A stretch of 52,344 bases of DNA. Source: Escherichia virus TH27. Location of the stretch: the sequence record MT446401.1. One strand, 5' to 3'. Under the pieces are notes generated by a model. The model worked only from the letters and a program-made list of their open reading frames with translations. It searched no databases and was not told where the DNA came from. Position numbers and translations under genes: made by a program. Below are positions 1,047 to 41,085 of this stretch, piece after piece; position 1 is the stretch's first letter; each line of letters opens with the position of its first letter.

Positions 1047-1579
1047 TGTTTGATTTCAACGATCCCAATCTGACCGATGACGAGATCGCAAAGGTCGCCA
1101 GTGAAAGTAACTTGACTCCACTGCGCGTAGCAATCAACGCGAACGGATACCGCCAATCATCCAGGTACTGGCGCTCCTTGAAAGAGCTTTCCTGCGTCAA
1201 TCTTGGCGAGGAGTGTAAGTCGGTGGCTTTAGCTATTCATCGGCAGGCAAAAAACGGAAAAGGCGTTACTGGAATCCGTTCGACATACGAAGCTATCAGG
1301 AAAGTAAAGCCATTTATTGGCCGATTTGGGTTAATGTCTGATCTTAAAGAGAGCATTCTACCTTCACTACAGGACGCAGGAATCATCTGCCGAATTGGAG
1401 ATAAGGTTTATATTCATCCATGGCTTGTGGGTGTTCCACACGTTGAGTTTAAGGCTTGGTTGAGTCAGCAAAATAAAGGCGACACCAAAAAGCAAACCAT
1501 CCATGGCTATGATGCCGATGAGGTGGAGAAGGCCATCCAGTTCTACCGGAAAGCGAAATCTCTCCTGAACGGTGAATAG
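1046..1579 (+). CDS. Truncated paralog (177 aa) of the 527-aa protein at 46851..48434: N-terminal about 45 aa plus C-terminal winged-helix-like segment, central region absent
   Basis: Shares MFDFN..LPPLRVAINANGYRQS and GKNGKGV.G.RS.YEA.RKVKPF...GDK.YI.P.L.G with the 527-aa protein; ATGA coupling to upstream gene. Confidence 0.8.
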   Translation: MFDFNDPNLTDDEIAKVASESNLTPLRVAINANGYRQSSRYWRSLKELSCVNLGEECKSVALAIHRQAKNGKGVTGIRSTYEAIRKVKPFIGRFGLMSDLKESILPSLQDAGIICRIGDKVYIHPWLVGVPHVEFKAWLSQQNKGDTKKQTIHGYDADEVEKAIQFYRKAKSLLNGE

Positions 1580-1619
1580 CACGAATTGCTAAACAATAAA
1601 TCGGGTAGTCAGCTATGAT
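1577..1619 (+). promoter_or_regulatory. Palindromic box TAGCACGAATTGCTAAA plus -10-like TATGAT in hairpin
   Basis: Box 1577..1593 overlaps stop TAG; 20-nt gap; hexamer 1614..1619 inside inverted repeat gggta/taccc. Confidence 0.5.
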
Positions 1620-1643
1620 TACCCTATCAACAACGAAGAGGAA

Positions 1644-1862
1644 ATGATTATGGATACTGGAATTTTACGCATTGACGATGTTCACTTTGACCAGGCTGAG
1701 GTCAGCGTCACGGTGCAAACCGTTCGCGGTAATGTTGTAAACCTGGACTTCGATCCTGACGATTACGGCGACTGTCAAACTCTGATGCAATACTCACCGG
1801 AGCAGGCCCGCAAATTAGCGGCGGCATTAATCCTGGCAGCGGAAGAGGCCGACAAGCAATGA
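1644..1862 (+). CDS. Small protein (72 aa), paralog of 2426..2656
   Basis: Shared DF.P..Y.D...Y.P.QAR.LA segment with 2426..2656; preceded by box/-10 module. Confidence 0.7.
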   Translation: MIMDTGILRIDDVHFDQAEVSVTVQTVRGNVVNLDFDPDDYGDCQTLMQYSPEQARKLAAALILAAEEADKQ

Positions 1863-2059
1863 GTAAATTCAGGATCGCATTGGTTGACACGACTACCGCC
1901 TTCGGTCATCCGGTCAAGTGGTACGCCATCCAAAAACGTGTAGCCTTGTTCTGGTGGGTTACGGTTGGACACGCCAGCCAGTTATCCCAGGATCGCTACT
2001 GGCTGCATAAGTCCGGAGCACCGCATCGCAAAGAGAAGGTATTGAGGATTGTTGAATGA
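1859..2059 (+). CDS. Hypothetical protein (66 aa)
   Basis: ORF with start overlapping upstream stop (ATGA). Confidence 0.5.
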   Translation: MSKFRIALVDTTTAFGHPVKWYAIQKRVALFWWVTVGHASQLSQDRYWLHKSGAPHRKEKVLRIVE

Positions 2060-2346
2060 AGAAACTAATTTTATTGGCGACCATGGCACTGGCTGGGTGC
2101 GATTTTGGAAGCACCCGAGTAGATTCAGAGGCTCGGCAGAAGATGCCAGTGAACGTAAACGATCGCGTCCAGGTTGTTAAGATTCAGGAGTTCAGGGATG
2201 AACTGGCATATGAGAACGTCAGAGCGATATACGTCATCACCGATAAGGACACTGGTCAGGAATACATCGGCTTAAGCGGTGTCGGCATCGTGGAAGTTGG
2301 TCGCCATGGTTGCGGCAAAGGATGCTCCAGAGAAGATGAGCGATAG
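2056..2346 (+). CDS. Putative lipoprotein (96 aa)
   Basis: N-terminal signal peptide with lipobox LAGC; stop TAG is first triplet of downstream box. Confidence 0.7.
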   Translation: MKKLILLATMALAGCDFGSTRVDSEARQKMPVNVNDRVQVVKIQEFRDELAYENVRAIYVITDKDTGQEYIGLSGVGIVEVGRHGCGKGCSREDER

Positions 2347-2386
2347 CACTTTTTGTTAAAACTGCCGTGAGTGCATTTGCTATAGT
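2344..2386 (+). promoter_or_regulatory. Palindromic box TAGCACTTTTTGTTAAA plus TG-c-TATAGT in hairpin
   Basis: Box 2344..2360; hexamer 2381..2386 in loop of gagtgca/tgcactc. Confidence 0.5.
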
Positions 2387-2425
2387 GCACTCATTGAAGT
2401 GAAACAATCAACTAAGGGGTAATTT

Positions 2426-2656
2426 ATGAGCACGACCGCCGTACGCATCGCTGACGACTCAGGCGAACAGGCCGAGGTAATGGTAAAGAAACTGCATAGC
2501 AGCGCCCAGGGCTTTGCATTCAAGGTGTGCGTTGACTTCAATCCTGAAGAGTATGTTGACGCATCAAGTTACATGGTGTACACGCCAGACCAGGCTCGAC
2601 AGTTGGCTGTGTATCTGATGGAAGCGGCCCACCGCGCTGAGAAGGGGGTTTTATGA
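2426..2656 (+). CDS. Small protein (76 aa), paralog of 1644..1862
   Basis: RBS AAGGGG upstream; sequence similarity to 1644..1862 product. Confidence 0.7.
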   Translation: MSTTAVRIADDSGEQAEVMVKKLHSSAQGFAFKVCVDFNPEEYVDASSYMVYTPDQARQLAVYLMEAAHRAEKGVL

Positions 2657-2859
2657 TTACCGATCGCAAGCGCTTCCAGGATATGGACGATGACGATTGC
2701 TGGATTGACACGATGACCAATAGCGATAACGTCACTGTCGAAATCGTTATTGACGACTACTCTGGAGCATTCCCAATGCAAGATCCGGCGACCGTCCGCG
2801 CAATGGGTGATCACTTAATAAAAATGGCTGACTACATGGAGCGCCACAATGAACAATGA
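2653..2859 (+). CDS. Small highly acidic protein (68 aa)
   Basis: ORF, ATGA coupling; Asp/Glu-rich (DMDDDDCWID...). Confidence 0.6.
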   Translation: MITDRKRFQDMDDDDCWIDTMTNSDNVTVEIVIDDYSGAFPMQDPATVRAMGDHLIKMADYMERHNEQ

Positions 2860-3067
2860 AGAAATGGTTAAGATCCGCATTATCAAGTCACCATATAGCG
2901 GAGTGGATAAAAGCAAGCTGCCAGTGGTAGCGATGGCCTGGAAATACCAGGAAGAAGGGCTTGAACCATTTTACATGGTTGACGCTGACTTCCTTCCGGC
3001 GCTCAGCAAGAATGGAATGGCTCCTGGCGATTGGCCCTTTGCAGGTGATGAGGTAGAGGTGCTATGA
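2849..3067 (+). CDS. Hypothetical protein (72 aa)
   Basis: ORF overlapping upstream gene end; same-strand operon context. Confidence 0.55.
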   Translation: MNNEEMVKIRIIKSPYSGVDKSKLPVVAMAWKYQEEGLEPFYMVDADFLPALSKNGMAPGDWPFAGDEVEVL

Positions 3068-3162
3068 AGTTCAAATTAGTTGACGTGCTGCAATTGCTTC
3101 TTGTCGGGTTATCCTGGGTGCTTTTGTTCCTGGTGATTGCCTTCCTGGCTACTATCAAATAA
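3064..3162 (+). CDS. Small hydrophobic peptide (32 aa), possible membrane peptide
   Basis: ATG overlaps upstream TGA (ATGA); MKFKLVDVLQLLLVGLSWVLLFLVIAFLATIK; below the 60-aa ORF track cutoff. Confidence 0.4.
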   Translation: MKFKLVDVLQLLLVGLSWVLLFLVIAFLATIK

Positions 3163-3174
3163 AGGTGAAATAAA

Positions 3175-3417
3175 ATGGTTTTCAATAAACAGACAATCTT
3201 TGATTTTATGGACGACGTGAACAAGGCTATTCAGGAGTTTGCCGTTGCAATGGAAGCGGTAATCATTAGCTACTCGGTCGAATACGGAAGGATTGATGTC
3301 CGGTGCTACCCTGCTAACGCCATAGCAGATGTGCATCCAGTGATGAGCATCTTGGTCGGTGATGCAAGTGAGCTTCGACGGATTACGGCTGGTGTGAGAA
3401 AGAGCACGAATTGCTAA
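3175..3417 (+). CDS. Hypothetical protein (80 aa)
   Basis: RBS AAAGGTGA upstream; C-terminal STNC-stop encoded by the palindromic box. Confidence 0.65.
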   Translation: MVFNKQTIFDFMDDVNKAIQEFAVAMEAVIISYSVEYGRIDVRCYPANAIADVHPVMSILVGDASELRRITAGVRKSTNC

Positions 3418-3444
3418 AACGATATTCTCCCTGACTGGTATACT
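3403..3444 (+). promoter_or_regulatory. Palindromic box AGCACGAATTGCTAAA plus TG-g-TATACT
   Basis: Box 3403..3418, 20-nt gap, hexamer 3439..3444. Confidence 0.5.
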
Positions 3445-3472
3445 TCTTTCATACCAACAAGGGAGATACGAA

Positions 3473-3661
3473 ATGACTAACTACACCACGATTTACACTC
3501 ACTGCGGCAAAGCATTCACGGCACTGGCTGAGGATATTGAGTATCTGCCCTGGCACCAGGTATGGAAGATGCACAAGATTACTTCCACTGGAACGCAGGA
3601 GTGGTTCTTGAGAAAGATTTACGTGGCGGAGGTCATTCACCACAACGAAAAATTCGAATAG
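3473..3661 (+). CDS. Hypothetical protein (62 aa)
   Basis: RBS GGGAGA upstream; stop TAG is first triplet of downstream box. Confidence 0.6.
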   Translation: MTNYTTIYTHCGKAFTALAEDIEYLPWHQVWKMHKITSTGTQEWFLRKIYVAEVIHHNEKFE

Positions 3662-3701
3662 CACTTTTTGTTAAACCTTCCGCAAGGCCATTTGATATAG
3701 T
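3659..3701 (+). promoter_or_regulatory. Palindromic box plus TG-a-TATAGT in hairpin
   Basis: Box 3659..3675; hexamer 3696..3701 in loop of aggcca/tggcct. Confidence 0.5.
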
Positions 3702-3741
3702 GGCCTTATTGAAGCAAAGCAACCAATCAGAGGATTTGCAG

Positions 3742-3945
3742 ATGTTTACTGAAAAAGAGTTTGAGCAGTTTTTCCGCCTGGTCAATATGTCAGGCAGCGC
3801 GGACCAGATGGATCGCATAAACAGCCGTCTTGAAATGCCAAAGTTCATCGAGGCAGTAGGCCGCAAGACGTGCGATAAGATGTGGCACTTAATTGAGCAT
3901 TACGGCGTAACACCAGCAACACTTAAATCGGAGCATATGAAATGA
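3742..3945 (+). CDS. Hypothetical protein (67 aa)
   Basis: Internal ATG of track ORF 3562..3945 chosen because it follows the box/-10 module and has RBS AGAGGA. Confidence 0.55.
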   Translation: MFTEKEFEQFFRLVNMSGSADQMDRINSRLEMPKFIEAVGRKTCDKMWHLIEHYGVTPATLKSEHMK

Positions 3946-4331
3946 AAGTACGTTTACTTAACCCTAGCATCTATGCAGATCCTGAATACTTCAAGCTGCA
4001 TCCGAAAGAGACTAGCCCTCGCGATCCTGGCTCTTACCCGATCGTTGTGGAAGGATTCATTGTTGAGCAGACTGAGCTTGAGAAGAAATACGGAATTGAG
4101 TCAACATTTAACTCAATCAAGGTTGGCGGCGATGAACTAGATCGCGTATTCAAAAGCTATTTCAGTGACGGACGCCAGATGAACTCAATCTACGGTAGCG
4201 CTGCGGTTCTCGGTTGGTGGAATCATGAAGGAGAGCCGAAATCATGGGAGCCAGTAGGGCCGTTCGATTTCTGGAACAAATTAAAGGCATCACGCGAAGT
4301 TGGCGAAACTGTAGGGAAGGGTTACTTATGA
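3942..4331 (+). CDS. Hypothetical protein (129 aa)
   Basis: ORF with ATGA coupling. Confidence 0.7.
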   Translation: MKVRLLNPSIYADPEYFKLHPKETSPRDPGSYPIVVEGFIVEQTELEKKYGIESTFNSIKVGGDELDRVFKSYFSDGRQMNSIYGSAAVLGWWNHEGEPKSWEPVGPFDFWNKLKASREVGETVGKGYL

Positions 4332-4507
4332 TTACTTTATGCATCGTGCTTTACATCCTTGGCGCACTTCCGGTTTACACTATTGCCGACGAGGTACGCA
4401 ATAGCGAGAACAAGCAATCTGACTTATTCATCATTGCTGCCGCTTGGCCTCTGGTCATTGCGTACGGCGTGGTGAGAAAAGCCTACCGTGCCTTGAAGGA
4501 GCAATGA
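4328..4507 (+). CDS. Small membrane protein (59 aa, two predicted TM segments)
   Basis: ATGA coupling to upstream gene; hydrophobic MITLCIVLYILGALPVY... and AAWPLVIAYGVV. Confidence 0.5.
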   Translation: MITLCIVLYILGALPVYTIADEVRNSENKQSDLFIIAAAWPLVIAYGVVRKAYRALKEQ

Positions 4508-4713
4508 TTATGATCCCGTTGAAGCCAATAGTTTTTATGCGTAATGGCATGTGGTTTGCCGTAGTTTGCGGCACTGGATACACTTATTCAAAAACCGCAG
4601 GTCGATGGTTTAAGGCTTTAAGCCAGGCGTCAGTATTCACTCATTTAGTAACAGCCATTCGCACAAGAACGGCATATCAGGTTAAGGGGTTAAAAAATGC
4701 AAGTCTACACTAA
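4504..4713 (+). CDS. Hypothetical protein (69 aa)
   Basis: ATG overlapping upstream stop; RBS GGAG upstream. Confidence 0.5.
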   Translation: MIMIPLKPIVFMRNGMWFAVVCGTGYTYSKTAGRWFKALSQASVFTHLVTAIRTRTAYQVKGLKNASLH

Positions 4714-4915
4714 CAGTAAAGGCATTGAATTTTGTGCGGTCGGCGATGTGGTCCTGCGAACTGGTGGCGGATACGGGATTATTAATATCTCAGGCATTAC
4801 GCAGGAACAGTTGGTAAAGGGTATCCAGGCTGGCATCTTTACCTATCACTCATCACTGACGGCTAAGCAGTATGTCACACTTGAAACTGCAATTCGCGCC
4901 GGATTCATCGAATAG
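4697..4915 (+). CDS. Hypothetical protein (72 aa)
   Basis: RBS AAGGGG upstream; stop TAG is first triplet of downstream box. Confidence 0.65.
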   Translation: MQVYTNSKGIEFCAVGDVVLRTGGGYGIINISGITQEQLVKGIQAGIFTYHSSLTAKQYVTLETAIRAGFIE

Positions 4916-4955
4916 CACTTTTTGTTAAAACTTGCTCGGAGACATTAGCTATAGT
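4913..4955 (+). promoter_or_regulatory. Palindromic box plus TATAGT in hairpin
   Basis: Box 4913..4929; hexamer 4950..4955 in loop of ggagaca/tgtctcc. Confidence 0.5.
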
Positions 4956-4996
4956 GTCTCCTGTCAAGTGAACACAAACCAACTGAGGTATCACAT

Positions 4997-5800
4997 ATGA
5001 ACAGCATCAACCGTTATATCCATGTGTCAGTGCCAACAAGCGTCAATATTCACGGCGTCGGAATGCAATCCTGCGACGATGGAGCATGGGTATCCTACGC
5101 AATGCATAAAAAAGAAATCGAGTCCTTACAGGCACGTTTAAAGGCCTTAGAATCGACTCAAAAACATCAAATTTCTGCACCGTCGATTATCGCTGACCAT
5201 GTTGAGCAGGCAATCAAAGAAGCTGTAGGTAAGCTGGTGCACGAAGCATGTGAGCAATTGTTCAAGGATTTGCCTAAGTACAATGGCGATCCGTGTCACA
5301 GCACTGTCGATGCATTCGTGAATGAGCTTGCGGCTGGCCAAGGGAAAACCGTCGTAGATGATGGCGCAAAGTTTGATTACCTGACGAAAGATTCCAAGTT
5401 CACTTTCGGTAGCAATTTCGGTGAAGGCAATGCGCTTACCATGTCAACCACGAAAATGGAACCGCGAAGCGGCGGTTACGGTTATAGCAATCGTCACGCA
5501 TTGGCGGTGGGTGAATGTGAATCAGCACGCGATCGCAAGATGGCGGTTTGCTACCATGTTGGAGGCAATGAGTTTATCAATGGTTGCGAGTACGCGTATG
5601 AAATTGATGAATGCGAACCAGGATGTGAGCCGCGACTTATTCAAATCACGCAAGATGCCTTCTGCTCTGGATTAAAAGGTGATTACCGTTGGGAAGCCAG
5701 GAGAATTGGTAAGGTCATGAATGCCAAGGCAACGCTCGGTGACGCATACGCAATCATAAATCCTGATGGTGGCGTGGTGGCTCAGTTCTATATCAAATAG
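4997..5800 (+). CDS. Hypothetical protein (267 aa)
   Basis: RBS GAGG upstream; stop TAG starts downstream box. Confidence 0.8.
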   Translation: MNSINRYIHVSVPTSVNIHGVGMQSCDDGAWVSYAMHKKEIESLQARLKALESTQKHQISAPSIIADHVEQAIKEAVGKLVHEACEQLFKDLPKYNGDPCHSTVDAFVNELAAGQGKTVVDDGAKFDYLTKDSKFTFGSNFGEGNALTMSTTKMEPRSGGYGYSNRHALAVGECESARDRKMAVCYHVGGNEFINGCEYAYEIDECEPGCEPRLIQITQDAFCSGLKGDYRWEARRIGKVMNAKATLGDAYAIINPDGGVVAQFYIK

Positions 5801-5840
5801 CACTTTTTGTTAAAAGGGGATTCATCCTGACTGGTATAAT
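5798..5840 (+). promoter_or_regulatory. Palindromic box plus TG-g-TATAAT in hairpin
   Basis: Box 5798..5814; hexamer 5835..5840 in ggggatt/aatcccc inverted repeat. Confidence 0.55.
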
Positions 5841-5872
5841 CCCCACACCAACCACACGAAAGGAAGTTAAAA

Positions 5873-6493
5873 ATGAACCAGCTTTACACCATGATTAAGC
5901 ATCACCTTGAAACGGTAGCAGTAAACAAGAAAGTTTACATCTTTGATTACGATGGCACTCTGTCAGACGGAACTCACCGCCTGCATAAGCTGCCGACCAA
6001 GGATTTACACCTCACTGAGTCATGGCTTGAATTTAACTCTCTGAGCAAGTTCGACACGCCATTCCAGGAAACGATTGACGTAATGAATGGCCTGTTTGCT
6101 TCCGGCGCTTTCATCATCGTGCTCACTGGTCGATCGGATGCAGTCGTTGAAGAATCAACGCAGTGGCTGTATGATGCGCGCGCCAATTACAACGTTCTGG
6201 TCATGCGCCAGGCTGATGATAACCGCAAGGATACGATCATCAAGGAAGAGTTTTTACGATACATTGGATTGCACCGCATCACCGCAGCGTGGGATGATAG
6301 CCCAAATGTTATTGCGCACTTCCGAAGCCTCGGCATCACTACCTATCAGGTGTGTGACTATGGCGATAAGCTCCACGCTGGCGTAGGATCGCATGGAGTT
6401 CAGCACAAAAATGAGTGCAAACACGAATGGGAATCATTCGATGATTATGGCGTCAAATGCCGAAAATGTGGAAAAATTGAGGAGATTGAGTAA
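5873..6493 (+). CDS. HAD-superfamily phosphatase (206 aa), polynucleotide 3'-phosphatase-like
   Basis: HAD motif I DxDGT (IFDYDGTLSDG) near N-terminus; RBS AAAGGAAG; immediately followed by kinase gene. Confidence 0.75.
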   Translation: MNQLYTMIKHHLETVAVNKKVYIFDYDGTLSDGTHRLHKLPTKDLHLTESWLEFNSLSKFDTPFQETIDVMNGLFASGAFIIVLTGRSDAVVEESTQWLYDARANYNVLVMRQADDNRKDTIIKEEFLRYIGLHRITAAWDDSPNVIAHFRSLGITTYQVCDYGDKLHAGVGSHGVQHKNECKHEWESFDDYGVKCRKCGKIEEIE

Positions 6494-7114
6494 ATGTCAA
6501 AGATTATCATTCTAAACGGCCCTGCTGGAGTAGGTAAAGACACTATCGGCAATGCACTGGTAGCAGATTACAACTGCATCCCTACCAGCTTCAAACGTCC
6601 GATGTTTGAGATTGCAGCATCCATCCTTGGGGCCAGGGCTTTTTCAAAGTTCATCACAGCATACGACGACCGCGATCAGAAAGAGCAGCCTCAGAGCTTT
6701 CTCGGTGGCAAGACCTGTCGTGAGTTCATGATCTGGATTAGCGAAACAGTGGTCAAGCCGCTTTTTGGCAATCAGCAGTTCGGCAAATTGATGAGCGAAC
6801 ATATCCAGCTGTGTGATGAAGGCTTCTGCTTTGTGTGTACTGATGGCGGCTTCCCTGATGAAGTGATCAGGCTCGTTGAAGATGGTCACAATGTTACCCT
6901 GGTCCGCCTGTTCATGGATGGCAAGACTTTCGCGGGAGATAGCCGTAATTACATCCGCATCAAGGAATCGCACTTCCCTGATTACAAGAAATATAACGAG
7001 CATGATGTGCATCTGGTAAATGGTGATGTTGATGATGGCGTCCTTAAAGTAGTTCGCGCTTGCTTGGTTAGTCCTTCAATGGATGATGATTGGGCCGACG
7101 ATATTCCTTGGTAA
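6494..7114 (+). CDS. P-loop kinase (206 aa), polynucleotide or nucleotide kinase-like, with acidic DDDWADDIPW C-terminus
   Basis: Walker A GPAGVGKDT at residues 9-17; start 1 nt after phosphatase stop; SSB-tail-like C-terminus. Confidence 0.75.
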   Translation: MSKIIILNGPAGVGKDTIGNALVADYNCIPTSFKRPMFEIAASILGARAFSKFITAYDDRDQKEQPQSFLGGKTCREFMIWISETVVKPLFGNQQFGKLMSEHIQLCDEGFCFVCTDGGFPDEVIRLVEDGHNVTLVRLFMDGKTFAGDSRNYIRIKESHFPDYKKYNEHDVHLVNGDVDDGVLKVVRACLVSPSMDDDWADDIPW

Positions 7115-7115
7115 A

Positions 7116-7158
7116 TAGCACGAATTGCTAAACCCGCTCCGGCGGGTTTTGTTATAGT
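7116..7158 (+). promoter_or_regulatory. Palindromic box TAGCACGAATTGCTAAA plus TG-t-TATAGT
   Basis: Box 7116..7132, 20-nt gap, hexamer 7153..7158. Confidence 0.5.
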
Positions 7159-7187
7159 TAGTTCACACCAAACGAGAGGAAAGCAAA

Positions 7188-7348: not shown

Positions 7349-7747
7349 ATGAAATTACGTTGCGTTAAAATACATCCAGGGTTAGCGCCGCTGTTCGAAG
7401 ATCACTTTCAGGTTGGTCATGTGTACGAAGCTAAACGCAGGCCAAATCGTCACCTCAACGTGGCTGATGTTATTGATGTCGATAACGGCCTTACCTGGTA
7501 CGCCATCCAGAAAGGCAGTAAGTTTAACCTGAATCTCGCAAGCGGCCCAGCAGTCACTTTCGTGGTAGTAAAGGGTCCGCGCCGATTAGTAGTGACGGAA
7601 AAACGTGTAACTAACGTGTTCAATGACAAGCGTAAATTCCGCCGTATGTGTCGCCAGTATGGCAAGTTACGATTCACTGAGCCTGGGATGTTCTGCTTTA
7701 TCGCCTTCGCGGCAATGAAAAAGAATGCACGCAATCACCAGCGATAG
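7349..7747 (+). CDS. Hypothetical basic protein (132 aa)
   Basis: ORF; stop TAG is first triplet of downstream box. Confidence 0.7.
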   Translation: MKLRCVKIHPGLAPLFEDHFQVGHVYEAKRRPNRHLNVADVIDVDNGLTWYAIQKGSKFNLNLASGPAVTFVVVKGPRRLVVTEKRVTNVFNDKRKFRRMCRQYGKLRFTEPGMFCFIAFAAMKKNARNHQR

Positions 7748-7787
7748 CACTTTTTGTTAAAACTCAGAATCGGGGTGGCTGTATAGT
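7745..7787 (+). promoter_or_regulatory. Palindromic box plus TATAGT in hairpin, followed by CATCGAAACGAA leader
   Basis: Box 7745..7761; hexamer 7782..7787 in ggggt/acccc; leader motif 7793..7804. Confidence 0.5.
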
Positions 7788-7817
7788 TACCCCATCGAAA
7801 CGAACGAGGAAGCAGAA

Positions 7818-30676: not shown

Positions 30677-30716
30677 TTTTGAATCCTTATTAAGTATGTT
30701 TCGTTTCGATGGAGTA

Positions 30717-30756
30717 ACTATACACCAACCATTAATTTAGTTTTAGCAATTCGTGC
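30717..30756 (-). promoter_or_regulatory. Palindromic box plus TATAGT (- strand) with CATCGAAACGAA leader
   Basis: Box 30742..30756, hexamer complement 30717..30722, leader 30700..30711; overlaps end of Rha-like gene. Confidence 0.5.
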
Positions 30757-31361
30757 GTTTTACCCGTCAGTGCGATAATTGTATCTTTCGATACCTCCAG
30801 CTTCATTTGTAATCCTTCGCATTGAGCCTGATATGAATACACGTTTTCCTGCGACTCATAATATCTATTGTTTTCGATTCGAATATTAGCCACCAAATCG
30901 TCGATTTGAGAGCCAGAACCTTCAGACTCTAGAATCTTATCAAGTACCTTGCTTTGCGCGTAGTACAGGTCTTCTATGCGGTGCTGCGCTGAAATGGCTC
31001 TATACTTCTGTTGGTGCTCATCAATAACCTCGTCAATTGAAACCATTTTGGAGTTGTGAGATTTAAGAACATTAACTTCATGCTCAAGCGACTTTATTTT
31101 CTGGATCATCTTCATTCTGATTTTTGCGCTGTATTTTGCAACAAGGCATAGCGTGTGATCCTTATCCAGAATGGCTACGTTATGCATCTTTCCTTTATGA
31201 TATTCTTGCTCCTCAAATTGAGGAACAAGGTTTTCTCCATATAAATCAACATACATAGCATTGACATCCCTTATAATGTTGTCGTGACGAACTCCTGTAA
31301 TCTTGGCAATCTCAAGGCTGGTCATGGTCATTTCTTCGTTTGTGATGGTTAATTCGTTCAT
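30732..31361 (-). CDS. Rha-family phage regulatory protein (209 aa)
   Basis: N-terminal [19 protein letters not shown] segment characteristic of Rha-type regulators; RBS GGAG. Confidence 0.7.
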
Positions 31362-31903
31362 TTTTCAATCTCCATTAGTGATCGCGTGATTGCGATGCGT
31401 GTATTTTGCACACTTTAATCTGATTGTCTTTAGCTATTCGTGCTTTTTGGTGTCAAATATGCAAATGCAACGATATACGCGTAACCGATGTAACTCGATG
31501 TATACAATCTAATCCTCGGAAAATTGTATACGCCCTGTTACGCCGATTTACGCTATAGTTACATTAAAATATCTATATATATCAACCTTTTACTCTTATT
31601 ATTATTATTATATATATTACTGTGTATATCGTGTAACTACTTCTATAGAGTGTTCCGATTATAAATTTCTAATATGGTTATTTATACAGTATTTAATCAC
31701 AAATACACCAATGCACCCTCAGCGAAAAATGATATACACGATATACACACTGTTTACATTAAGCTATAGCTGGGCTGGATAGCCATTTTATGTAACTAAC
31801 GCCATTGCATACACGCAATTACAAATATCTACACGTAACCACTTGACTAACGCAACCAAGCGTGTATAGTTAGCCACATCAACAACGAACGAGGATTAAA
31901 GAG
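31362..31903. other. 540-bp AT-rich intergenic region with TATAC(A/G)C-type repeats between divergent operons
   Basis: No ORF; repeated atacac/atacgc units, tandem gatatacac x2 at 31730..31749, (TTA)5 at 31596..31610. Confidence 0.7.
31843..31870 (+). promoter_or_regulatory. sigma70-type promoter (TTGACT-16-TATAGT)
   Basis: TTGACT 31843..31848, 16-nt spacer, TATAGT 31865..31870. Confidence 0.55.
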
Positions 31904-32956
31904 ATGACAGAGCCACTGTTTCAATACTTCACCTCAGAAGAAATGAGCAACGACTTTTACCACAGCAAGGATGAGTGGACCGCCGATTATGTATCAGGTT
32001 CATCGCTGAGCAAGATTCACAGCACTTGCCCTGCGGCGTGGAAGTTTGAAATGAACTCAACGACTAAGGCGCTTGTCTTCGGTACGCAGTCGCATACCAA
32101 TTTCGAGAGTAAGGCACTGTTTGAACGCCAGTATCGTCGCGCACCAAAAGATAGCGAGATTGCAAACGTAATCACTAGCCAGGCGGCCTTGGCTACGAAA
32201 TTAAAATCATTTGGCCTGACTGGTACAAGCGGCAAGCAATATCCAGAGCTAATCAAAATGATGGTTGATTGCGGCGAAGACCTCAACGTCATGTGGCTGA
32301 TTGATATGATCGCACAATGTCAGGCGTGGGCGGATGGCGTGGAACTGGTTAAGGCGGAAGACTACGACGCTTGCGTAAGTATGCGCCAGGTTCTTGAAAT
32401 GATTCCTGAGCATAACGCTTGCATGAACAGCGAGACTGCATTCCGTGAGTATTCGTTGTTCGGCGTAATTTGTGGCGTTAAAGTCAAGGTTCGACTTGAC
32501 CATGTTGACATCATTAATGATCCAGAAGCCATCCGACGCATGGGTTACGATCCTGAGATTCACCCTGAAATTGTCGTCATCACTGATTACAAAACAACAA
32601 TGAGCGCCAACCCGACCGAGTTCCCGCGCCTGGCGTTCAACCTTGGGTATTACCTCAAGATGGCATTGCAGCGTGACCTGTTCGTCAAGTGCTTTGAGGA
32701 AACGCGACCTGTGGTTGTGCGATTACTGGCCCAGGAGAAGAAGGAGCCTTACTTGCCTATGGCGTACCGGATGAGTGGGGATCAGCTTAAGATTGGGCGA
32801 GCGCAGTACATGAGCGTGATTCACACCTTTTCAATGTGCGAAGCCAATGATGTGTGGCCTTCATACAATAATGGCGAGCCGGAAGTCGAACTGGAGACGC
32901 CGCCATGGGTAATGAAGCAATTTGAGTCAATACTATTAATTTCAATGAGAAATTAA
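31904..32956 (+). CDS. PD-(D/E)xK family exonuclease (350 aa), RecB/Cas4-like
   Basis: D..(13)..ITDYKT motif typical of PD-(D/E)xK nucleases; adjacent to Erf recombinase. Confidence 0.7.
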   Translation: MTEPLFQYFTSEEMSNDFYHSKDEWTADYVSGSSLSKIHSTCPAAWKFEMNSTTKALVFGTQSHTNFESKALFERQYRRAPKDSEIANVITSQAALATKLKSFGLTGTSGKQYPELIKMMVDCGEDLNVMWLIDMIAQCQAWADGVELVKAEDYDACVSMRQVLEMIPEHNACMNSETAFREYSLFGVICGVKVKVRLDHVDIINDPEAIRRMGYDPEIHPEIVVITDYKTTMSANPTEFPRLAFNLGYYLKMALQRDLFVKCFEETRPVVVRLLAQEKKEPYLPMAYRMSGDQLKIGRAQYMSVIHTFSMCEANDVWPSYNNGEPEVELETPPWVMKQFESILLISMRN

Positions 32957-33030
32957 AATACATAGACGGCAACCTTTACTGGATAAAAAGCGGTAAGATT
33001 GCCGGAACACCGAAAGGTAACGGGTACTTA

Positions 33031-33393
33031 ATGATCTCATTTAACTATGTGAAGCTTCTAGCTCATAGGGTTATATGGGAAATGCACTACGGACCTATAC
33101 CAGAAGGTTACGAGATAGACCACATTAACGGAATAAGAAGTGATAACAGGATTGAAAACCTAAGACTTGTAACTAGAGCCATCAACAATAAAAATAAAAA
33201 GATGCAGTCAAATAACACATCAGGATTCACAGGTGTTGTTTTTGTTAAGCAAAGATGTAAATGGAACGCAAGGGTAAAGGTAAATGGAGTGCAGAAAAGC
33301 CTTGGTAGTTTCAATACAGCAATTGAAGCGAAAGAGGCAAGGGAAAGATACATCTCAATGAATGGTGATTTTACTTTAAGGCATGGCAGGTAG
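33031..33393 (+). CDS. HNH-AP2 homing endonuclease (120 aa from ATG; in-frame N-terminal extension back to 32926 has no ATG/GTG/TTG)
   Basis: HRVIWEMHYGPIPEGYEIDHINGIRSDNRIENLR motif; upstream in-frame KYIDGNLYWIKSG matches N-termini of the HNH genes at 44399 and 49326. Confidence 0.7.
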   Translation: MISFNYVKLLAHRVIWEMHYGPIPEGYEIDHINGIRSDNRIENLRLVTRAINNKNKKMQSNNTSGFTGVVFVKQRCKWNARVKVNGVQKSLGSFNTAIEAKEARERYISMNGDFTLRHGR

Positions 33394-33432
33394 CACTTTT
33401 TGCTAAACAAGAATGCGGTGATTTGCTATAAT
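33391..33432 (+). promoter_or_regulatory. Palindromic box TAGCACTTTTTGCTAAA plus TG-c-TATAAT in hairpin
   Basis: Box 33391..33407; hexamer 33427..33432 inside cggtgat/atcaccg. Confidence 0.55.
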
Positions 33433-33469
33433 CACCGTAAATCAAACGAAGTAAACAAAGGTATATATA

Positions 33470-34126
33470 ATGCGTACATCAGAGAAGTTTTCGAATGTTT
33501 CGGCCGCTCTAATTGCAGCTAAAAAGCAGTTTGCCATCGCAAAAAAATCAGGATTCAATACTCACCTGAAAACACATTACTCAAACCTGACGGACGTTCT
33601 GGAGGCCGTAGAGCCAGCGCTAAAAGAGCATGACCTTATGGTTATCCAGTCAAACCTGGACACGTCAACCGAGAAGGTTATGCACATTGAAACACTCATC
33701 CTTCATAGTTCCGGCGAGTGGCTTGCGTTCCAGTACAACATGCCGATCGAGAAGATTAGCGCCCAGGCTTACGGTTCAACAACCTCATACGGTCGCCGTT
33801 ACGCATTGTGCGCAGCGCTTGGAATCACTCAGAGCGATGACGATGCAGAAATCGCGAAGCGCACGGCAGCAGACTACAAAAAACTGATCACAAACTGTGA
33901 AAAACTGGAAGACCTCCAGGTCATCTATAAGAGCGCGAAAGGTTCACTTGGTGCGGCGGAATGGAAGATTGCAGAAGACCACTTGCAGAAGCGCAAGGCT
34001 GAATTGAGTATCGGTAGCGCTCGCGGTTTCCAGCCAGCCAAAAAGGCCGAGGCGCAAAAGGTTGAAGACAAGGTTGCAAATGCACCGTCCGAACCTGTAC
34101 AATCTGAATCCATCGAGCAATTCTAA
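33470..34126 (+). CDS. erf: Erf-family single-strand annealing recombinase (218 aa)
   Basis: SGEW...TSYGRRYALCAALGI..DDDA pattern typical of ERF family. Confidence 0.8.
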   Translation: MRTSEKFSNVSAALIAAKKQFAIAKKSGFNTHLKTHYSNLTDVLEAVEPALKEHDLMVIQSNLDTSTEKVMHIETLILHSSGEWLAFQYNMPIEKISAQAYGSTTSYGRRYALCAALGITQSDDDAEIAKRTAADYKKLITNCEKLEDLQVIYKSAKGSLGAAEWKIAEDHLQKRKAELSIGSARGFQPAKKAEAQKVEDKVANAPSEPVQSESIEQF

Positions 34127-34166
34127 TTAACGGGGCTTCGGCCCCATCCAATAAGGAAAATAAAAA

Positions 34167-34589
34167 ATGCCACACGTAATCACTGGTCAGATCCGTAAAG
34201 CACCTTTTACCAAAGAAGGCAGTAACAACAACGGGCGCTGGAAAATGTACGCCGTTGAACTGTCAGAACGCATGAAGATTCGCAATCAGCAGGGCGAGGA
34301 TGAGACGGTTTACAGCAACTACCGCGCCACGTTCTTCGCAAAAGAAAACGTTATGCAGTGGTATGATGAAGCATTCCAGGAAGGTAAGGTTGTATCAATT
34401 TCTGCCGACACTCTTCACTTGGCGTCACGCCAGGGTAATGATGGCACTGTGTATGTAACAGCTGAAATGATCAGGCCTCAGTTGCAATTCAGCCAGCGTG
34501 AGACGTCGCAACAGCGACAGCAGCCACAACAACAACAAAGACAGCAACCGCAGCAACAAAGCCAGTTCGATGACGATATTCCTTTCTGA
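34167..34589 (+). CDS. ssb: Single-stranded DNA-binding protein (140 aa)
   Basis: Gln-rich linker and C-terminal DDDIPF, identical to the bacterial SSB acidic tip. Confidence 0.85.
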   Translation: MPHVITGQIRKAPFTKEGSNNNGRWKMYAVELSERMKIRNQQGEDETVYSNYRATFFAKENVMQWYDEAFQEGKVVSISADTLHLASRQGNDGTVYVTAEMIRPQLQFSQRETSQQRQQPQQQQRQQPQQQSQFDDDIPF

Positions 34590-34599
34590 TGTAAAAGAT

Positions 34600-34624
34600 A
34601 AAGCCCCTTTCGGGGCTTTTTTTG
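34600..34624. terminator. Terminator hairpin between convergent genes (T-run on + strand only)
   Basis: aaagcccc-tttc-ggggcttt followed by T-run on + strand; - strand side has only an interrupted run. Confidence 0.8.
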
Positions 34625-36835: not shown

Positions 36836-36860
36836 AATTGTAAATCCCTAATTTAGTTGA

Positions 36861-36889
36861 TAGCACGATTTGCTAAATGCAGTATACCA
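36861..36889 (-). promoter_or_regulatory. Palindromic box with adjacent TG-g-TATACT (- strand), upstream of tail fiber gene
   Basis: Box 36861..36877; -10-like complement at 36881..36889; here the box lies between -10 and gene. Confidence 0.4.
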
Positions 36890-36900
36890 TCTTTCTGGCA

Positions 36901-36923
36901 TAAAAAAACCCGCCGAAGCGGGT
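36901..36923 (-). terminator. Rho-independent terminator (- strand) after primase gene
   Basis: acccgc-ttcg-gcgggt with T7 on - strand. Confidence 0.7.
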
Positions 36924-36928
36924 AATTG

Positions 36929-37873: not shown

Positions 37874-37925
37874 TGCTTTAACTCCAATAAAAAAGGTTGC
37901 ACCAATTATGGCACAACCTTGATTG

Positions 37926-38399: not shown

Positions 38400-38412
38400 T
38401 TTATCACCTCAA

Positions 38413-38454
38413 TAGCACTTTTTGTTAAACATTGGTTTCGATGGTTGCTATTAT
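38413..38454 (+). promoter_or_regulatory. Palindromic box plus TG-c-TATTAT in divergent promoter region
   Basis: Box 38413..38429; hexamer 38449..38454. Confidence 0.5.
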
Positions 38455-38491
38455 AACGTCAATCGAACGAACATGAAAGGCATTTAATACT

Positions 38492-41019: not shown

Positions 41020-41046
41020 AGACGAATCGGTGAAGTGGTGTATTAT
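41004..41046 (+). promoter_or_regulatory. Palindromic box plus TATTAT in hairpin, followed by CATCGAAACGAA
   Basis: Box 41004..41020; hexamer 41041..41046 in gtgaagtg/cacttcat; leader 41052..41063. Confidence 0.5.
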
Positions 41047-41085
41047 CACTTCATCGAAACGAAGTAACAAACAAAGGAAATCAAA

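What the first reader, a model, noticed from the sequence alone, without database searches (positions are those of the whole stretch)
7793..7804. Conserved CATCGAAACGAA leader motif between the -10 element and the RBS
The 12-mer CATCGAAACGAA, or a one-base variant, occurs in the sense orientation just downstream of the -10 hexamer in at least six modules: 7793..7804 and 41052..41063 on the + strand, and as complements at 30700..30711, 48880..48891, 50442..50453 and 51808..51819 on the - strand. Its position fits the transcription start or 5' leader, so it could be an initial-transcribed-sequence signal, an RNA processing or stability element, or a translation enhancer.
Basis: seen in the sequence. 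Interest (0 to 1): 0.45.

Follow-up and report, generated by a model that had tools for sequence, protein, structure and literature searches.

The report
Conserved start-site box of phage promoters
The 12-base motif is real and marks the predicted transcription start and first ~11 transcribed bases of a subset of repeated promoter cassettes in a T1-like coliphage; the same box sits in the same position in other T1-like phages and some T4-like phages, so it is a conserved but fairly ordinary promoter/leader element whose exact role has not been tested.

Summary
CATCGAAACGAA occurs 5 times exactly and twice with one mismatch (0.31 expected).

The window is a T1-like coliphage (Drexlerviridae, Nouzillyvirus-like). 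The box is the 3' end of a ~60-bp intergenic cassette:
- the published 21-nt repeat aaATAGCACnnnTTGnTAAAA, whose function the TLS paper lists as an open question;
- a 20-nt variable spacer that usually forms a hairpin;
- a TATAnT -10 hexamer, often preceded by G at -14;
- 5 nt, then the box.

The box is locked to the -10: TAnnnT lies exactly 5 nt upstream in 205 of 257 distinct contexts. It floats 10-24 nt from the start codon. It is the least-substituted part of orthologous box-bearing modules and survives complete spacer replacement. It also follows canonical TTGACx-N17-TATAnT promoters in T4-like Klebsiella/Enterobacter phages.

It therefore spans -1 to +11 of sigma70-type promoters, with +1 inferred at the A of CATCG. 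The most likely role is start-site and initial-transcribed sequence, which also gives an A-rich, U-poor, unstructured mRNA 5' end. Whether selection acts on promoter escape or on the leader RNA is unresolved. Pairing with 16S rRNA is not supported. No mapped start sites were found. Moderate interest.

The parts
7793..7804 (+). Box copy 1 (exact). Inferred +1 is the A at 7794; ATG at 7818.
7782..7787 (+). -10-like hexamer TATAGT of cassette 1, 5 nt upstream of the box
   Evidence: information profile
7745..7761 (+). Upstream repeat (DR) TAGCACTTTTTGTTAAA of cassette 1. Its TAG is the stop codon of the upstream gene.
   Evidence: repeat described in PMC11447400
41052..41063 (+). Box copy 2 (exact). 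Inferred +1 at 41053; ATG at 41086. CATCG is also the 3' end of a 10-bp stem, CGGTGAAGTG/CACTTCATCG.
   Evidence: compensatory A-T to G-C change in ESCO41/TH30/TH21
41041..41046 (+). -10-like hexamer TATTAT of cassette 2
41004..41020 (+). DR TAGCACGAATTGCTAAA of cassette 2. The upstream gene stops at its TAA.
30700..30711 (-). Box copy 3 (exact). Inferred +1 at 30710; ATG at 30676. Its orthologs keep the box while the spacer is completely replaced.
30717..30722 (-). -10-like hexamer TATAGT of cassette 3
30742..30758 (-). DR variant ACGCACGAATTGCTAAA of cassette 3
48880..48891 (-). Box copy 4 (CATCAAAACGAA). The G-to-A change is specific to this genome; orthologs in ESCO41, TH30 and TH21 have the exact box. 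Inferred +1 at 48890; ATG at 48858.
48897..48902 (-). -10-like hexamer TATATT of cassette 4, preceded by a terminator-like hairpin AGCCCttcgGGGCTTTT in the spacer
48923..48939 (-). DR TAGCACTAATTGCTAAA of cassette 4
50442..50453 (-). Box copy 5 (exact). Inferred +1 at 50452. It is followed by a 155-nt leader before the ATG at 50297.
50459..50464 (-). -10-like hexamer CATAAT of cassette 5
50485..50501 (-). DR TAGCACGAATTGCTAAA of cassette 5
51808..51819 (-). Box copy 6 (exact). Inferred +1 at 51818; ATG at 51796. The box lies at offset 50 from the DR instead of 48, with a 6-nt gap after the -10.
51826..51831 (-). -10-like hexamer TATCAT of cassette 6
51853..51869 (-). DR TAGCACTTTTTGCTAAT of cassette 6
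38432..38443 (-). It has no DR and lies 6 nt after TATAAT (38450-38455). It sits upstream of the HTH transcriptional-regulator gene (37926-38399, -) and overlaps, on the other strand, the spacer of the divergent helicase cassette (DR 38413-38429, +).
1577..7176 (+). Seven further DR cassettes of the left arm with the same architecture but other C/A-rich boxes. DRs start at 1577, 2344, 3402, 3659, 4913, 5798 and 7116. Their boxes are TATCAACAACGA, CATTGAAGTGAA, CATACCAACAAG, TATTGAAGCAAA, CTGTCAAGTGAA, CACCAACCACAC and CACACCAAACGA.
31385..44944 (.). Five further non-box DR cassettes. DRs are at 33391(+), 38413(+), 42318(+), 44884(+) and 31445(-).

Best explanation
CATCGAAACGAA is the start-site and initial-transcribed segment (-1 to +11) of one subclass of the host-RNA-polymerase (sigma70-type) promoters of this T1-like phage.

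Each promoter is a compact intergenic cassette with four parts in order. First comes the published Drexlerviridae repeat TAGCAC-N3-TTGnTAAA, a TAGCA-N5-TGCTA palindrome centred near -42 that often contains the upstream gene's stop codon. Next is a 20-nt variable spacer that, together with the discriminator, usually forms a hairpin. Then comes a TATAnT -10 hexamer, often with G at -14 and with no -35 at 16-18 bp. Finally, after 5 nt, comes the box.

Transcription is inferred to start at the A of CATCG. The box would then do three things. It fixes a pyrimidine(-1)/purine(+1) start. It supplies an A-rich, U-poor initial transcribed sequence, a kind of sequence known in other promoters to set how efficiently RNA polymerase escapes. 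It gives the mRNAs a common unstructured 5' end ahead of the Shine-Dalgarno sequence.

Shown here: the geometry, the conservation and the cross-family occurrence. Inferred: the start site and the effect on initiation or escape.

The near-identity of the copies is maintained by selection, since the box state is stable between orthologs, and by spread of whole cassettes through recombination, since the modules sit at mosaic junctions.
For: - Enrichment: 7 copies against 0.31 expected.
- Information profile over 133 distinct modules in 8 genomes. It shows a sigma70-like pattern: T37 A38 T39 and T42 with peaks at the -11 A and -7 T positions, G at -14, and C48/A49 as a -1/+1 pair.
- Position relative to the repeat: offset 48 in 33 of 40 modules (SD 0.67 nt). 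Distance from box to ATG is 10-24 nt (SD 4.3).
- IMG/VR scan with a free 15-45-nt gap: the gap is 31 nt in 116 of 126 distinct matches.
- Box-anchored survey: TAnnnT lies exactly 5 nt upstream in 205 of 257 distinct contexts. Copies without the repeat follow TTGACC-N17-TATATT, TTGACT-N17-CATAAT and TTGCAA/TTGCAT-N17-TATATT.
- In the variants with a 42-nt gap, the repeat moves 11 bp further upstream while the -10-to-box spacing is unchanged.
- Orthologs: box state is concordant in 99 of 104 pairs. Box mismatch is 0.015 when both members have the box, and 0.088 when at least one does. The spacer values are 0.21 and 0.25. In 12 pairs the box is kept although the spacer is under 50% identical.
- Leader composition at +1..+20 is 47% A and 12% U, and the leader is slightly less structured than shuffles (z +0.41).
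- The copy at 50442 keeps the box at the promoter although an insertion has pushed the SD 143 nt away; in TH21 the same gene follows the box directly.
- A standard two-hexamer promoter scan finds nothing above chance in the left arm (15 found vs 15.9 expected). This matches the TLS authors' failure to find promoters there and leaves these cassettes as the only promoter-like elements ahead of the early genes.
Against: - No transcription start site has been mapped for any T1-like phage in the literature I could search, so +1 is inferred from geometry alone.
- The Drexlerviridae cassettes lack a -35 at 16-18 bp.
- Box-class cassettes carry the TGn extension less often than the others (12% vs 46%). 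Recognition by unaided sigma70 holoenzyme is therefore not assured and may need whatever binds the repeat.
- Nothing here separates an effect on initiation or escape from an effect on the RNA 5' end, because both are anchored to the start site.
- The ortholog conservation figures carry some ascertainment bias and come from related genomes.
- The strong hairpin that ends exactly at -1 is not explained by this model.
Confidence: 0.55

Rival explanations
1. The box acts mainly as RNA, as a 5'-terminal leader element. The A/C-rich, U-poor, unstructured 5' end would raise translation (ribosome or S1 loading on an open leader) or mRNA stability. The promoter only positions it at the 5' end.
For: The leader at +1..+20 is 47% A and 12% U, and less structured than shuffles in 74% of modules. 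The non-box cassettes share the composition (A at +1, +5..+7 and +10..+12) rather than the exact sequence, which points to a compositional constraint. In T4-like cassettes the whole leader CATCGAAACGAAACAGAgAAAGGAAA is conserved up to the SD. From my own knowledge, CA-rich and A-rich leaders are reported translation enhancers in E. coli.
Against: Distance to the SD/ATG is not constrained: 10-24 nt in general and 143 nt at 50442. The box shows no complementarity to 16S rRNA beyond shuffles (-5.8 vs -8.4 kcal/mol). A purely compositional requirement does not explain why one exact 12-mer dominates (16 of 83 modules, with no other variant above 3) or why it shows about 1.5% substitution between orthologs.
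Confidence: 0.25
2. The box is an operator. A phage or host DNA-binding protein would bind at -1..+11 and switch a defined subset of promoters off or on, for example early shut-off or autoregulation.
For: Only a subset of cassettes carries the exact box, and box state is a stable, gene-specific trait (99 of 104 concordant ortholog pairs). That is the pattern expected of a regulon. One copy lies at the promoter of the HTH regulator gene itself, with no upstream repeat. The box contains a short direct repeat, CGAA-A-CGAA. A site overlapping +1 is a classic repressor position.
Against: The box has no dyad symmetry. The same box occurs in Straboviridae, which share little else with T1-like phages, so a phage-encoded binder would have to be shared or host-encoded. 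No candidate protein was tested. The genes driven by box promoters show no common function.
Confidence: 0.1
3. The box is an RNA processing site in read-through polycistronic transcripts. The hairpin just upstream would become a protective 3' end for the upstream mRNA, and cleavage in the single-stranded box would create the downstream mRNA's 5' end.
For: Sense-strand RNA covering offsets 14-55 folds at -11.9 kcal/mol against -4.4 for shuffles (z -3.65), and more strongly than the antisense strand. Pairing probability drops exactly at offset 49. Stems covary. The box stays single-stranded.
Against: The box is U-poor, unlike the A/U-rich sites that (from my own knowledge) RNase E prefers. In many cassettes, including most T4-like ones, the hairpin is a terminator with a U-run ending before the -10, so the box would seldom be present in read-through RNA. 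This model does not explain the TATAnT, G(-14) and CA conservation.
Confidence: 0.05
4. The box has no function of its own. The copies are identical because whole cassettes were recently duplicated or exchanged, and the box hitch-hikes with the -10.
For: Cassettes sit at mosaic junctions: 44 of 104 ortholog pairs have unrelated upstream flanks. A 92-aa gene has moved together with its cassette between phage families. PeSL cassettes of T4-type phages are known recombination substrates.
Against: The box is retained where the adjacent spacer has been replaced or has diverged (12 pairs). It is less substituted than the -10, the repeat or the start of the coding sequence. It recurs at the same register in genera that share little nucleotide identity and behind unrelated promoter upstream halves.
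Confidence: 0.05

Closest known systems
21-nt intergenic direct repeat of T1-like phages (aaATAGCACnnnTTGnTAAAA), described for phage TLS; the authors say similar repeats occur in T1, Rtp and Rogue1 (PMC11447400)
   Same: Six of the seven box copies lie 48 nt (47-50) downstream of exactly this repeat. [quoted passage not shown]
   Different: In the passages I read, the paper describes only the 21-nt repeat, finds only three sigma70-like promoters, and lists the repeat's function as an open question. It does not mention the -10 hexamer at a fixed 20-nt distance, the -1/+1 CA, or the box. The box is a separate element: it also occurs without the repeat, at 38432 in this window and in most copies in the T4-like phages.
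PeSL (promoter-early stem-loop) cassettes of T4-type phages (PMC2839356, PMC4122927)
   Same: Both are short, repeated, composite promoter-plus-stem-loop cassettes. Both lie between small genes of variable regions and are associated with mosaic junctions and gene shuffling. Box-bearing cassettes in Slopekvirus have the full PeSL layout: terminator hairpin, a -35 inside it, N17, then the -10.
   Different: PeSLs as described have near-canonical sigma70 promoters with N17 spacing, and no conserved initial transcribed box is reported for them. The T1-like cassettes have no -35 at 16-18 bp and instead carry the repeat 22 bp upstream of the -10. Their hairpin often encloses the -10 rather than preceding it.
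Conserved initial transcribed or downstream regions of strong phage promoters, such as the T5 N25 ITS and the +1..+6 of T7 class III promoters (recalled from my own knowledge, not tested here)
   Same: These are sequences just after +1 that are conserved in register with the core promoter. They are purine- and A-rich on the non-template strand and are known to affect abortive cycling and promoter escape.
   Different: There is no sequence similarity to those elements. T7 uses its own RNA polymerase. For this box, no effect on escape has been measured.
'Putative middle promoter' features in the Klebsiella phage KP15 GenBank record (GU295964), found with MEME (PMC5219037)
   Same: The annotated features at 55838-55875, 56495-56543 and 56848-56876 end at or just before the same box, or a one-mismatch variant of it.
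   Different: These are in-silico predictions only. The annotated spans stop at the -10/start region, and the paper does not describe the box. The geometry does not fit a T4 MotA-type middle promoter for the repeat-bearing copies.

Membership tests
sigma70-type promoter (-10 / extended -10 class) | -10 hexamer resembling TATAAT, with A at -11 and T at -7, 6-8 nt upstream of a purine start | tested here: met
   All 7 copies have TATAGT, TATTAT, TATATT, TATCAT, CATAAT or TATAAT 5-6 nt before the box. The information profile peaks at the -11 A and -7 T positions and at C(-1)/A(+1). 205 of 257 contexts have TAnnnT exactly 5 nt upstream.
sigma70-type promoter (-10 / extended -10 class) | -35 hexamer (TTGACA-like) 16-18 bp upstream of the -10 | tested here: not met
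   In Drexlerviridae cassettes the best -35 score at 16-18 bp does not differ from the control. The TTGnTA of the repeat lies 22 bp upstream. The two-hexamer scan finds 15 sites against 15.9 expected. The feature is met only in the T4-like copies.
sigma70-type promoter (-10 / extended -10 class) | TGn extension, which can substitute for a -35 | tested here: inconclusive
   G at -14 is present in 73% of all modules and TG in 36%. In the box class, TG is present in only 12% and G(-14) in 50%.
sigma70-type promoter (-10 / extended -10 class) | Experimentally mapped primary 5' end, or in vitro initiation by sigma70 holoenzyme | not testable with these tools
   No start-site data for T1-like phages were found.
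Drexlerviridae 21-nt direct-repeat module | Match to aaATAGCACnnnTTGnTAAAA, intergenic and co-oriented with the downstream gene | tested here: met
   Six of the 7 box copies have the repeat with at most 2 mismatches at offset 47-50. The copy at 38432 has none.
PeSL cassette (T4-type phages) | Near-consensus sigma70 promoter with N17 spacing combined with a stem-loop terminator | tested here: not met
   The window cassettes have no N17 -35. Hairpins are strong (z -3.65), but only some carry a U-run, for example 7130-7149 and the hairpin in the 48939 cassette. The Slopekvirus copies do meet this feature.
PeSL cassette (T4-type phages) | Located between small variable genes and at indel or mosaic boundaries | tested here: met
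   There are eight cassettes in the 1.5-7.8-kb small-ORF arm. 44 of 104 ortholog pairs have unrelated upstream flanks. A gene and its cassette are shared across phage families.
Translational enhancer acting by pairing with 16S rRNA (epsilon-type) | Complementarity to 16S rRNA above background | tested here: not met
   The best duplex is -5.8 kcal/mol against a shuffled mean of -8.4; 98% of shuffles pair as well or better.
sigma54 promoter (TGGCAC-N5-TTGCW) | GG and GC elements with N5 between GGCAC and TTGC | tested here: not met
   The repeat reads tAGCAC-N3-TTGCt. It has AG instead of GG and a gap 2 bp too short. Nothing is conserved about 12 bp downstream of the GC. The sigma54 consensus is taken from my own knowledge.
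T4 MotA-dependent middle promoter | Mot box (TGCTT) about 11-13 bp upstream of the -10 | tested here: not met
The TTGCTAAA of the repeat ends 20-22 bp upstream of the -10. Whether the window encodes MotA or AsiA homologues was not tested.
Known RNA family (Rfam) or tRNA | Match at the family's gathering score | tested here: not met
   The whole window gives 0 Rfam matches and 0 tRNA genes.

The most novel reading that the evidence does not exclude
The repeat, hairpin, -10 and box form a self-contained, mobile regulatory cassette that is exchanged, sometimes together with its gene, between unrelated phage families (Drexlerviridae and Straboviridae) infecting Enterobacteriaceae. The covarying hairpin encloses the -10 and ends exactly at -1, and the invariant box follows it. 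Together they would act as a functional unit, for example a structure-dependent switch that couples read-through from upstream to initiation or processing at the cassette. On this reading the palindromic repeat near -42 is read by a host factor common to all these hosts. Its 13/15 match to the E. coli Lrp consensus is one untested lead.
Probability: 0.2. Interest if true: 0.65.

Novelty: new variant of a known kind. Interest (0 to 1): 0.42.

Why it matters
T1-like phages are common laboratory and industrial contaminants and candidates for phage therapy, yet how their genes are transcribed is essentially unknown. The 2024 TLS re-annotation found almost no recognisable promoters and listed the function of the 21-nt intergenic repeat as an open question.

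This analysis places that repeat at a fixed 20 nt upstream of a -10 hexamer and a conserved start-site box. That gives a concrete, testable promoter model: -35-less, with the repeat centred near -42, and seven predicted +1 positions in this genome. The model would define the transcription units of the whole family.

The box also gives a simple search handle (TAnnnT-N5-CATCGAAACGAA) for such promoters in T1-like and some T4-like phages. It shows that promoter cassettes, and at least one gene with its cassette, are shared across phage families. If the box tunes promoter escape or leader function, it could serve as a compact part for phage engineering. None of this is surprising in kind.

Tried and rejected
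- Loosened motif. At 2-3 mismatches there is no enrichment (70 vs 56 expected), so only the near-exact copies carry the signal.
- Standard sigma70 two-hexamer scan of the left arm. It returns chance level and does not detect the cassettes.
- -35-like hexamers at 16-18 bp in the Drexlerviridae cassettes. They are no more frequent than in the control.
- Dam/GATC involvement in the spacer. Eight of 83 modules have GATC against about 6.4% expected, so there is no enrichment.
- 16S rRNA complementarity of the box. The box pairs less well than most shuffles.
- Rfam and tRNA scans of the window. Both found nothing.
- Functional split between genes behind box promoters and genes behind other cassettes, using PHROGs. 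None is visible.
- sigma54 reading of the repeat. Rejected on spacing (N3 rather than N5) and on AG in place of GG.
- sigma-dependent promoter-proximal pause element. Rejected by inspection: the box holds no TAnnnT-like hexamer, because it contains a single T.
- boxA/nut-like reading of the repeat plus hairpin. Rejected because the similarity to boxA is weak, and in terminator-type cassettes the TATAnT lies outside the hairpin.
- Literature search for mapped start sites or transcriptomes of T1-like or Webervirus phages. None was found. One candidate paper concerned a Kagunavirus.
- The 12-mer and its complement occur in the searchable literature only as parts of unrelated sequences.
- The original T1 genome paper (PMID 14972552) is not held, so its promoter analysis could not be checked.
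- The first ortholog substitution analysis was distorted by pairs out of register. It was redone with alignment.
Full report
**1. Observation**

CATCGAAACGAA with up to one mismatch occurs 7 times in the 52,344-bp window, against 0.31 expected from dinucleotide-preserving shuffles (largest shuffle count 3).
- Five copies are exact: 7793(+), 41052(+), 30700(-), 50442(-) and 51808(-).
- Two have one mismatch: 48880(-) is CATCAAAACGAA, and 38432(-) is CATCGAAACCAA.
- With 2-3 mismatches allowed there is no excess (70 vs 56 expected).
- Each copy is co-oriented with the gene downstream. Each lies 5-6 nt after a TATAnT-type hexamer and 22-43 nt before an SD-preceded ATG, or 155 nt at 50442.

**2. 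Genomic setting**

The window is a T1-like coliphage. Its closest relatives are about 90-93% identical and include vB_EcoM_50EP, TH21, TH30 and ESCO41 (Drexlerviridae, Nouzillyvirus). Bases 1-402 are repeated exactly at 51943-52344, so the unit genome is 51,942 bp.

**3. The box is one part of a larger cassette**

Aligning the copies shows a conserved module of about 60 bp. About 18 intergenic cassettes in the window share the following layout:
- TAGCAC-N3-TTG(C/T)TAAA;
- a 20-nt spacer;
- a TATAnT hexamer;
- 5 nt;
- a C/A-rich 12-mer, of which CATCGAAACGAA is the commonest form.

The upstream 21-nt repeat is already published for phage TLS, with consensus aaATAGCACnnnTTGnTAAAA. TLS has 18 intergenic copies, about 76 nt upstream of start codons, and the authors say similar repeats occur in T1, Rtp and Rogue1. 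They found only three sigma70-like promoters, offered stoperator, enhancer or UP-element ideas, and listed the repeat's function as an open question (PMC11447400). The passages I read mention neither a -10 nor the box.

The 12-mer does not appear in the searchable literature except inside unrelated sequences. The original T1 genome paper is not held.

**4. Evidence that the box sits at a transcription start**

*Information profile.* Over 133 distinct modules from 8 Drexlerviridae genomes (this window, ESCO41, TH30, TH21, T1, Rtp, Msk and Klebsiella Webervirus mtp18), the profile runs as follows:
- about 2 bits per position across the repeat;
- almost nothing across the spacer;
- then T37 A38 T39 and T42, with the highest peaks at the -11 A and -7 T positions;
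- G at -14;
- a C48/A49 peak.
This is the signature of a sigma70 -10 element followed by a pyrimidine(-1)/purine(+1) start.

*Spacing.* The box lies at offset 48 from the repeat in 33 of 40 modules (SD 0.67 nt). Its distance to the start codon ranges from 10 to 24 nt (SD 4.3).

*Wider scan.* A scan of IMG/VR with the gap free to vary from 15 to 45 nt returned at least 120 loci. The gap was exactly 31 nt in 116 of 126 distinct matches.

*Anchoring on the box.* Across all fetched sequence there are 257 distinct contexts, and 205 of them (80%) have TAnnnT exactly 5 nt upstream.

*Independent support from another phage family.* Some matches lie on 144-180-kb contigs. These are T4-like Straboviridae: Klebsiella phage KP15 (Slopekvirus) and about 178-kb Enterobacter, Cronobacter and Klebsiella phages.
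- In a complete Slopekvirus genome (mtp5, 175,100 bp) the box occurs 9 times against 0.9 in shuffles.
- Seven of those copies are intergenic and follow TAnnnT by 5 nt.
- Only three of them carry the repeat.
- Most of the others have a canonical -35 (TTGCAT or TTGCAA, N17) embedded in a terminator hairpin.
- Other copies without the repeat follow TTGACC-N17-TATATT and TTGACT-N17-CATAAT.
- Where the repeat is 11 bp further upstream (gap of 42 nt), the -10-to-box spacing is unchanged.
The box therefore tracks the -10, not the repeat, and spans -1 to +11 of sigma70-type promoters.

KP15's record labels these elements "putative middle promoter; discovered using MEME". That label rests on in-silico work only.

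**5. Conservation**

I compared 104 ortholog pairs of modules, defined by at least 70% identity in the downstream coding sequence.
- Box state is concordant in 99 pairs: 34 with the box in both members and 65 with it in neither.
- In pairs where both members have the box, the mismatch rates are box 0.015, spacer 0.208, -10 region 0.129, repeat 0.088 and positions 60-71 0.164.
- Requiring the box in only one member still gives 0.088 for the box against 0.251 for the spacer.
- Twelve pairs keep the box although the spacer is less than 50% identical. An example is the cassette ahead of the 80-aa gene at 30434-30676, conserved from this phage to Rtp, Msk and a Klebsiella phage.
- The one-mismatch copy at 48880 is a change specific to this genome; three relatives have the exact box.

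These figures carry some ascertainment bias and the genomes are related. Even so, the direction is clear: the box is constrained.

The modules also sit at mosaic junctions, since 44 of 104 pairs have unrelated upstream flanks. A 92-aa gene lies directly behind a box cassette both in T4-like phages and in about 50-kb T1-like contigs, at 64-76% amino-acid identity. Cassettes can therefore move, sometimes together with their gene.

**6. How it most likely works**

Shown here: the geometry, the enrichment, the conservation and the cross-family occurrence. Inferred: transcription starts at the A of CATCG, 7 nt after the -10.

On that basis the box would have three effects.
- It fixes a C(-1)/A(+1) start.
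- It provides an A-rich, U-poor initial transcribed sequence. Composition at +1..+20 is 47% A and 12% U, and purine content at +1..+11 is 72%.
- It gives the mRNAs a common 5' end that is slightly less structured than shuffles (z +0.41).

From established work on other promoters (the T5 N25 ITS; my own knowledge), such sequences set the balance between abortive cycling and promoter escape. I take this as the most likely selected role, with the open leader as a second benefit.

Two observations argue for a role anchored at the promoter or the 5' end rather than at the SD. The box-to-ATG distance is variable. At 50442 the box has stayed at the promoter while an insertion moved the SD 143 nt away, whereas in TH21 the same gene follows the box directly.

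The data cannot separate a DNA-level or initiation effect from a 5'-terminal RNA effect, because both are tied to the start site.

**7. Rival explanations**

- *RNA leader enhancer or stabiliser.* This is compatible with the composition, and with the fact that non-box cassettes share A at +1, +5..+7 and +10..+12 rather than the exact sequence. However, pairing with 16S rRNA is not supported (-5.8 kcal/mol against -8.4 for shuffles), and a compositional need does not explain why one exact 12-mer dominates.
- *Operator for a regulator.* The subset pattern and the copy at the HTH regulator's own promoter fit this idea. Against it, the box has no dyad symmetry, it is shared with an unrelated phage family, and the genes it precedes have no common function.
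- *Processing site after the hairpin.* This is possible, but the box is U-poor. In terminator-type cassettes it would rarely be present in read-through RNA.
- *Pure hitch-hiking.* This is contradicted by retention of the box through spacer turnover.

**8. What remains unexplained**

- The Drexlerviridae cassettes have no -35 at 16-18 bp. The repeat's TTGnTA lies 22 bp upstream of the -10.
- The repeat is a TAGCA-N5-TGCTA palindrome centred near -42. In the T4-like variants it sits one helical turn further upstream. This looks like a face-of-helix-dependent protein site rather than a -35.
- It resembles the sigma54 consensus but has the wrong spacing, and it resembles a Mot box at the wrong distance.
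- It matches the E. coli Lrp consensus yAGhAwATTwTdCTr at 13 of 15 positions by my own count. That is a lead, not a test.
- Box-class promoters carry TGn less often than the others (12% vs 46%, p = 0.005 on non-independent data).
- The segment between the repeat and +1 folds strongly on the sense strand (-11.9 vs -4.4 kcal/mol for shuffles, z -3.65; antisense z -2.0). Pairing probability falls exactly at +1.
- Inverted repeats of variable sequence bracket the -10. The mean best stem is 5.6 bp, against 4.16 +/- 0.11 bp when right arms are permuted among modules. Stems of at least 6 bp occur in 51% of modules against 11%.
- There are compensatory changes. One example is CGGTGAAGTG/CACTTCATCG here against CGGTGAGGTG/CACCTCATCG in ESCO41. 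Another is AAGGTCA/TGGCCTT in T1 against AACGTCA/TGGCGTT in a Klebsiella phage.
- This hairpin lies upstream of the inferred start, so it exists only in read-through RNA or in DNA. Its role is unknown.

**9. Comparison with known systems, and novelty**

The closest relatives are:
- the published Drexlerviridae 21-nt repeat, which is the same module, of which the box is an undescribed downstream part;
- the PeSL promoter/terminator cassettes of T4-type phages, which are the same kind of repeated, recombinogenic promoter-plus-stem-loop cassette. The Slopekvirus copies are essentially PeSLs that carry this box. The T1-like cassettes fail the N17 -35 criterion;
- conserved initial transcribed regions of strong phage promoters, which are functionally analogous but share no sequence with the box.

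I rate this a new variant of a known kind. The box itself is an ordinary type of element. The -35-less architecture with an upstream repeat, the hairpin enclosing the -10 and the cross-family sharing are the less ordinary parts.

**10. Verdict**

The box most likely marks +1 and the initial transcribed sequence of a subclass of the phage's promoters. I put the chance that it sits at real start sites at about 0.85, and the chance that the full stated mechanism is right at about 0.55.

Interest is moderate. The analysis turns a stated open question about T1-like phages into a directly testable promoter model, but the kind of element is familiar and no experiment yet supports the start sites.

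Noticed in passing
Cassettes starting at 1577, 2344, 3659, 4913, 5798, 7745 and 41004 (+). Examples: 2344 TGAGTGCA..TGCACTCA; 7772-7792 GGGGTG..TACCCC; 41028-41056 CGGTGAAGTG..CACTTCATCG.: Inverted repeats of variable sequence bracket the -10 hexamer and end at -1, or at the G of CATCG. They are far more frequent than in permuted controls and show compensatory changes between phages. G.T pairs are tolerated on the sense strand only. The sense-strand RNA covering offsets 14-55 folds with z = -3.65. The hairpin lies upstream of the inferred start site, and its function is unexplained.
   Followed up: partly
All repeat copies, e.g. 7745-7761 and 41004-41020: The published 21-nt repeat contains a TAGCA-N5-TGCTA palindrome centred about 42 bp upstream of the inferred start. 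By my own count it matches the E. coli Lrp consensus yAGhAwATTwTdCTr at 13 of 15 positions in the TTT/TTGCTA variant, and at 11-12 of 15 in the others. It also resembles the sigma54 -24/-12 consensus, but with N3 instead of N5. In T4-like variants it sits 11 bp (one helical turn) further upstream.
   Followed up: partly
Stop codons at repeat offset 0 (TAG) for the cassettes at 1577, 2344, 3659, 4913, 5798, 7745, 33391, 42318 and 48939(-). At offset 13 (TAA) for 3402 and 41004.: The upstream gene's stop codon is usually part of the repeat itself, either the TAG of TAGCAC or the TAA of TTGCTAA. Coding sequence therefore runs straight into the cassette.
   Followed up: yes
50298-50441 (- strand); repeat units at 50392-50421 and 50326-50355: The box promoter at 50442-50501 is followed by a non-coding leader of about 150 nt. 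It holds two exact copies of a 30-nt unit, AAGTTGCAAACGTAGGCCGGAGCAACGAAA, each forming a GTTGC..GCAAC hairpin. A further hairpin, CTCACgaagGGTGAG, sits right after the box. In TH21 the same 74-aa gene follows the box directly, so this is an insertion; phage Msk also has it. There is no Rfam or tRNA match.
   Followed up: partly
36861-36877 (+) and 15644-15660 (-): These are 'orphan' copies of the 21-nt repeat with no -10 hexamer or box downstream. They lie next to terminator-like hairpins between convergent or oppositely oriented genes. Equivalent orphan copies occur in ESCO41, T1, Rtp, Msk and TH21.
   Followed up: no
L129-L132 (Klebsiella phage mtp5, Slopekvirus), L128 (KP15), L014, L017, L073; compared with L026, L081, L067 and L011: T4-like Straboviridae carry the same repeat/-10/box cassettes, including a GGGGTA..TACCCC stem identical to one in T1. 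A 92-aa gene (MKLVRE...) lies directly behind a box cassette in both phage families at 64-76% amino-acid identity. This indicates transfer of a gene together with its cassette between families.
   Followed up: partly
1-402 and 51943-52344: The first 402 bases of the window are repeated exactly at its end, giving a unit length of 51,942 bp. This is either terminal redundancy or an assembly overlap of a circularly permuted genome.
   Followed up: yes
Box-class cassettes compared with the other cassettes in 8 Drexlerviridae genomes: Box-class promoters carry the TGn extended -10 less often (TG 12% vs 46%; G at -14 50% vs 83%). They typically read TGTATAnT, with the TG shifted by one base. This suggests a distinct promoter subclass. 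The statistics come from related genomes and are not independent.
   Followed up: partly
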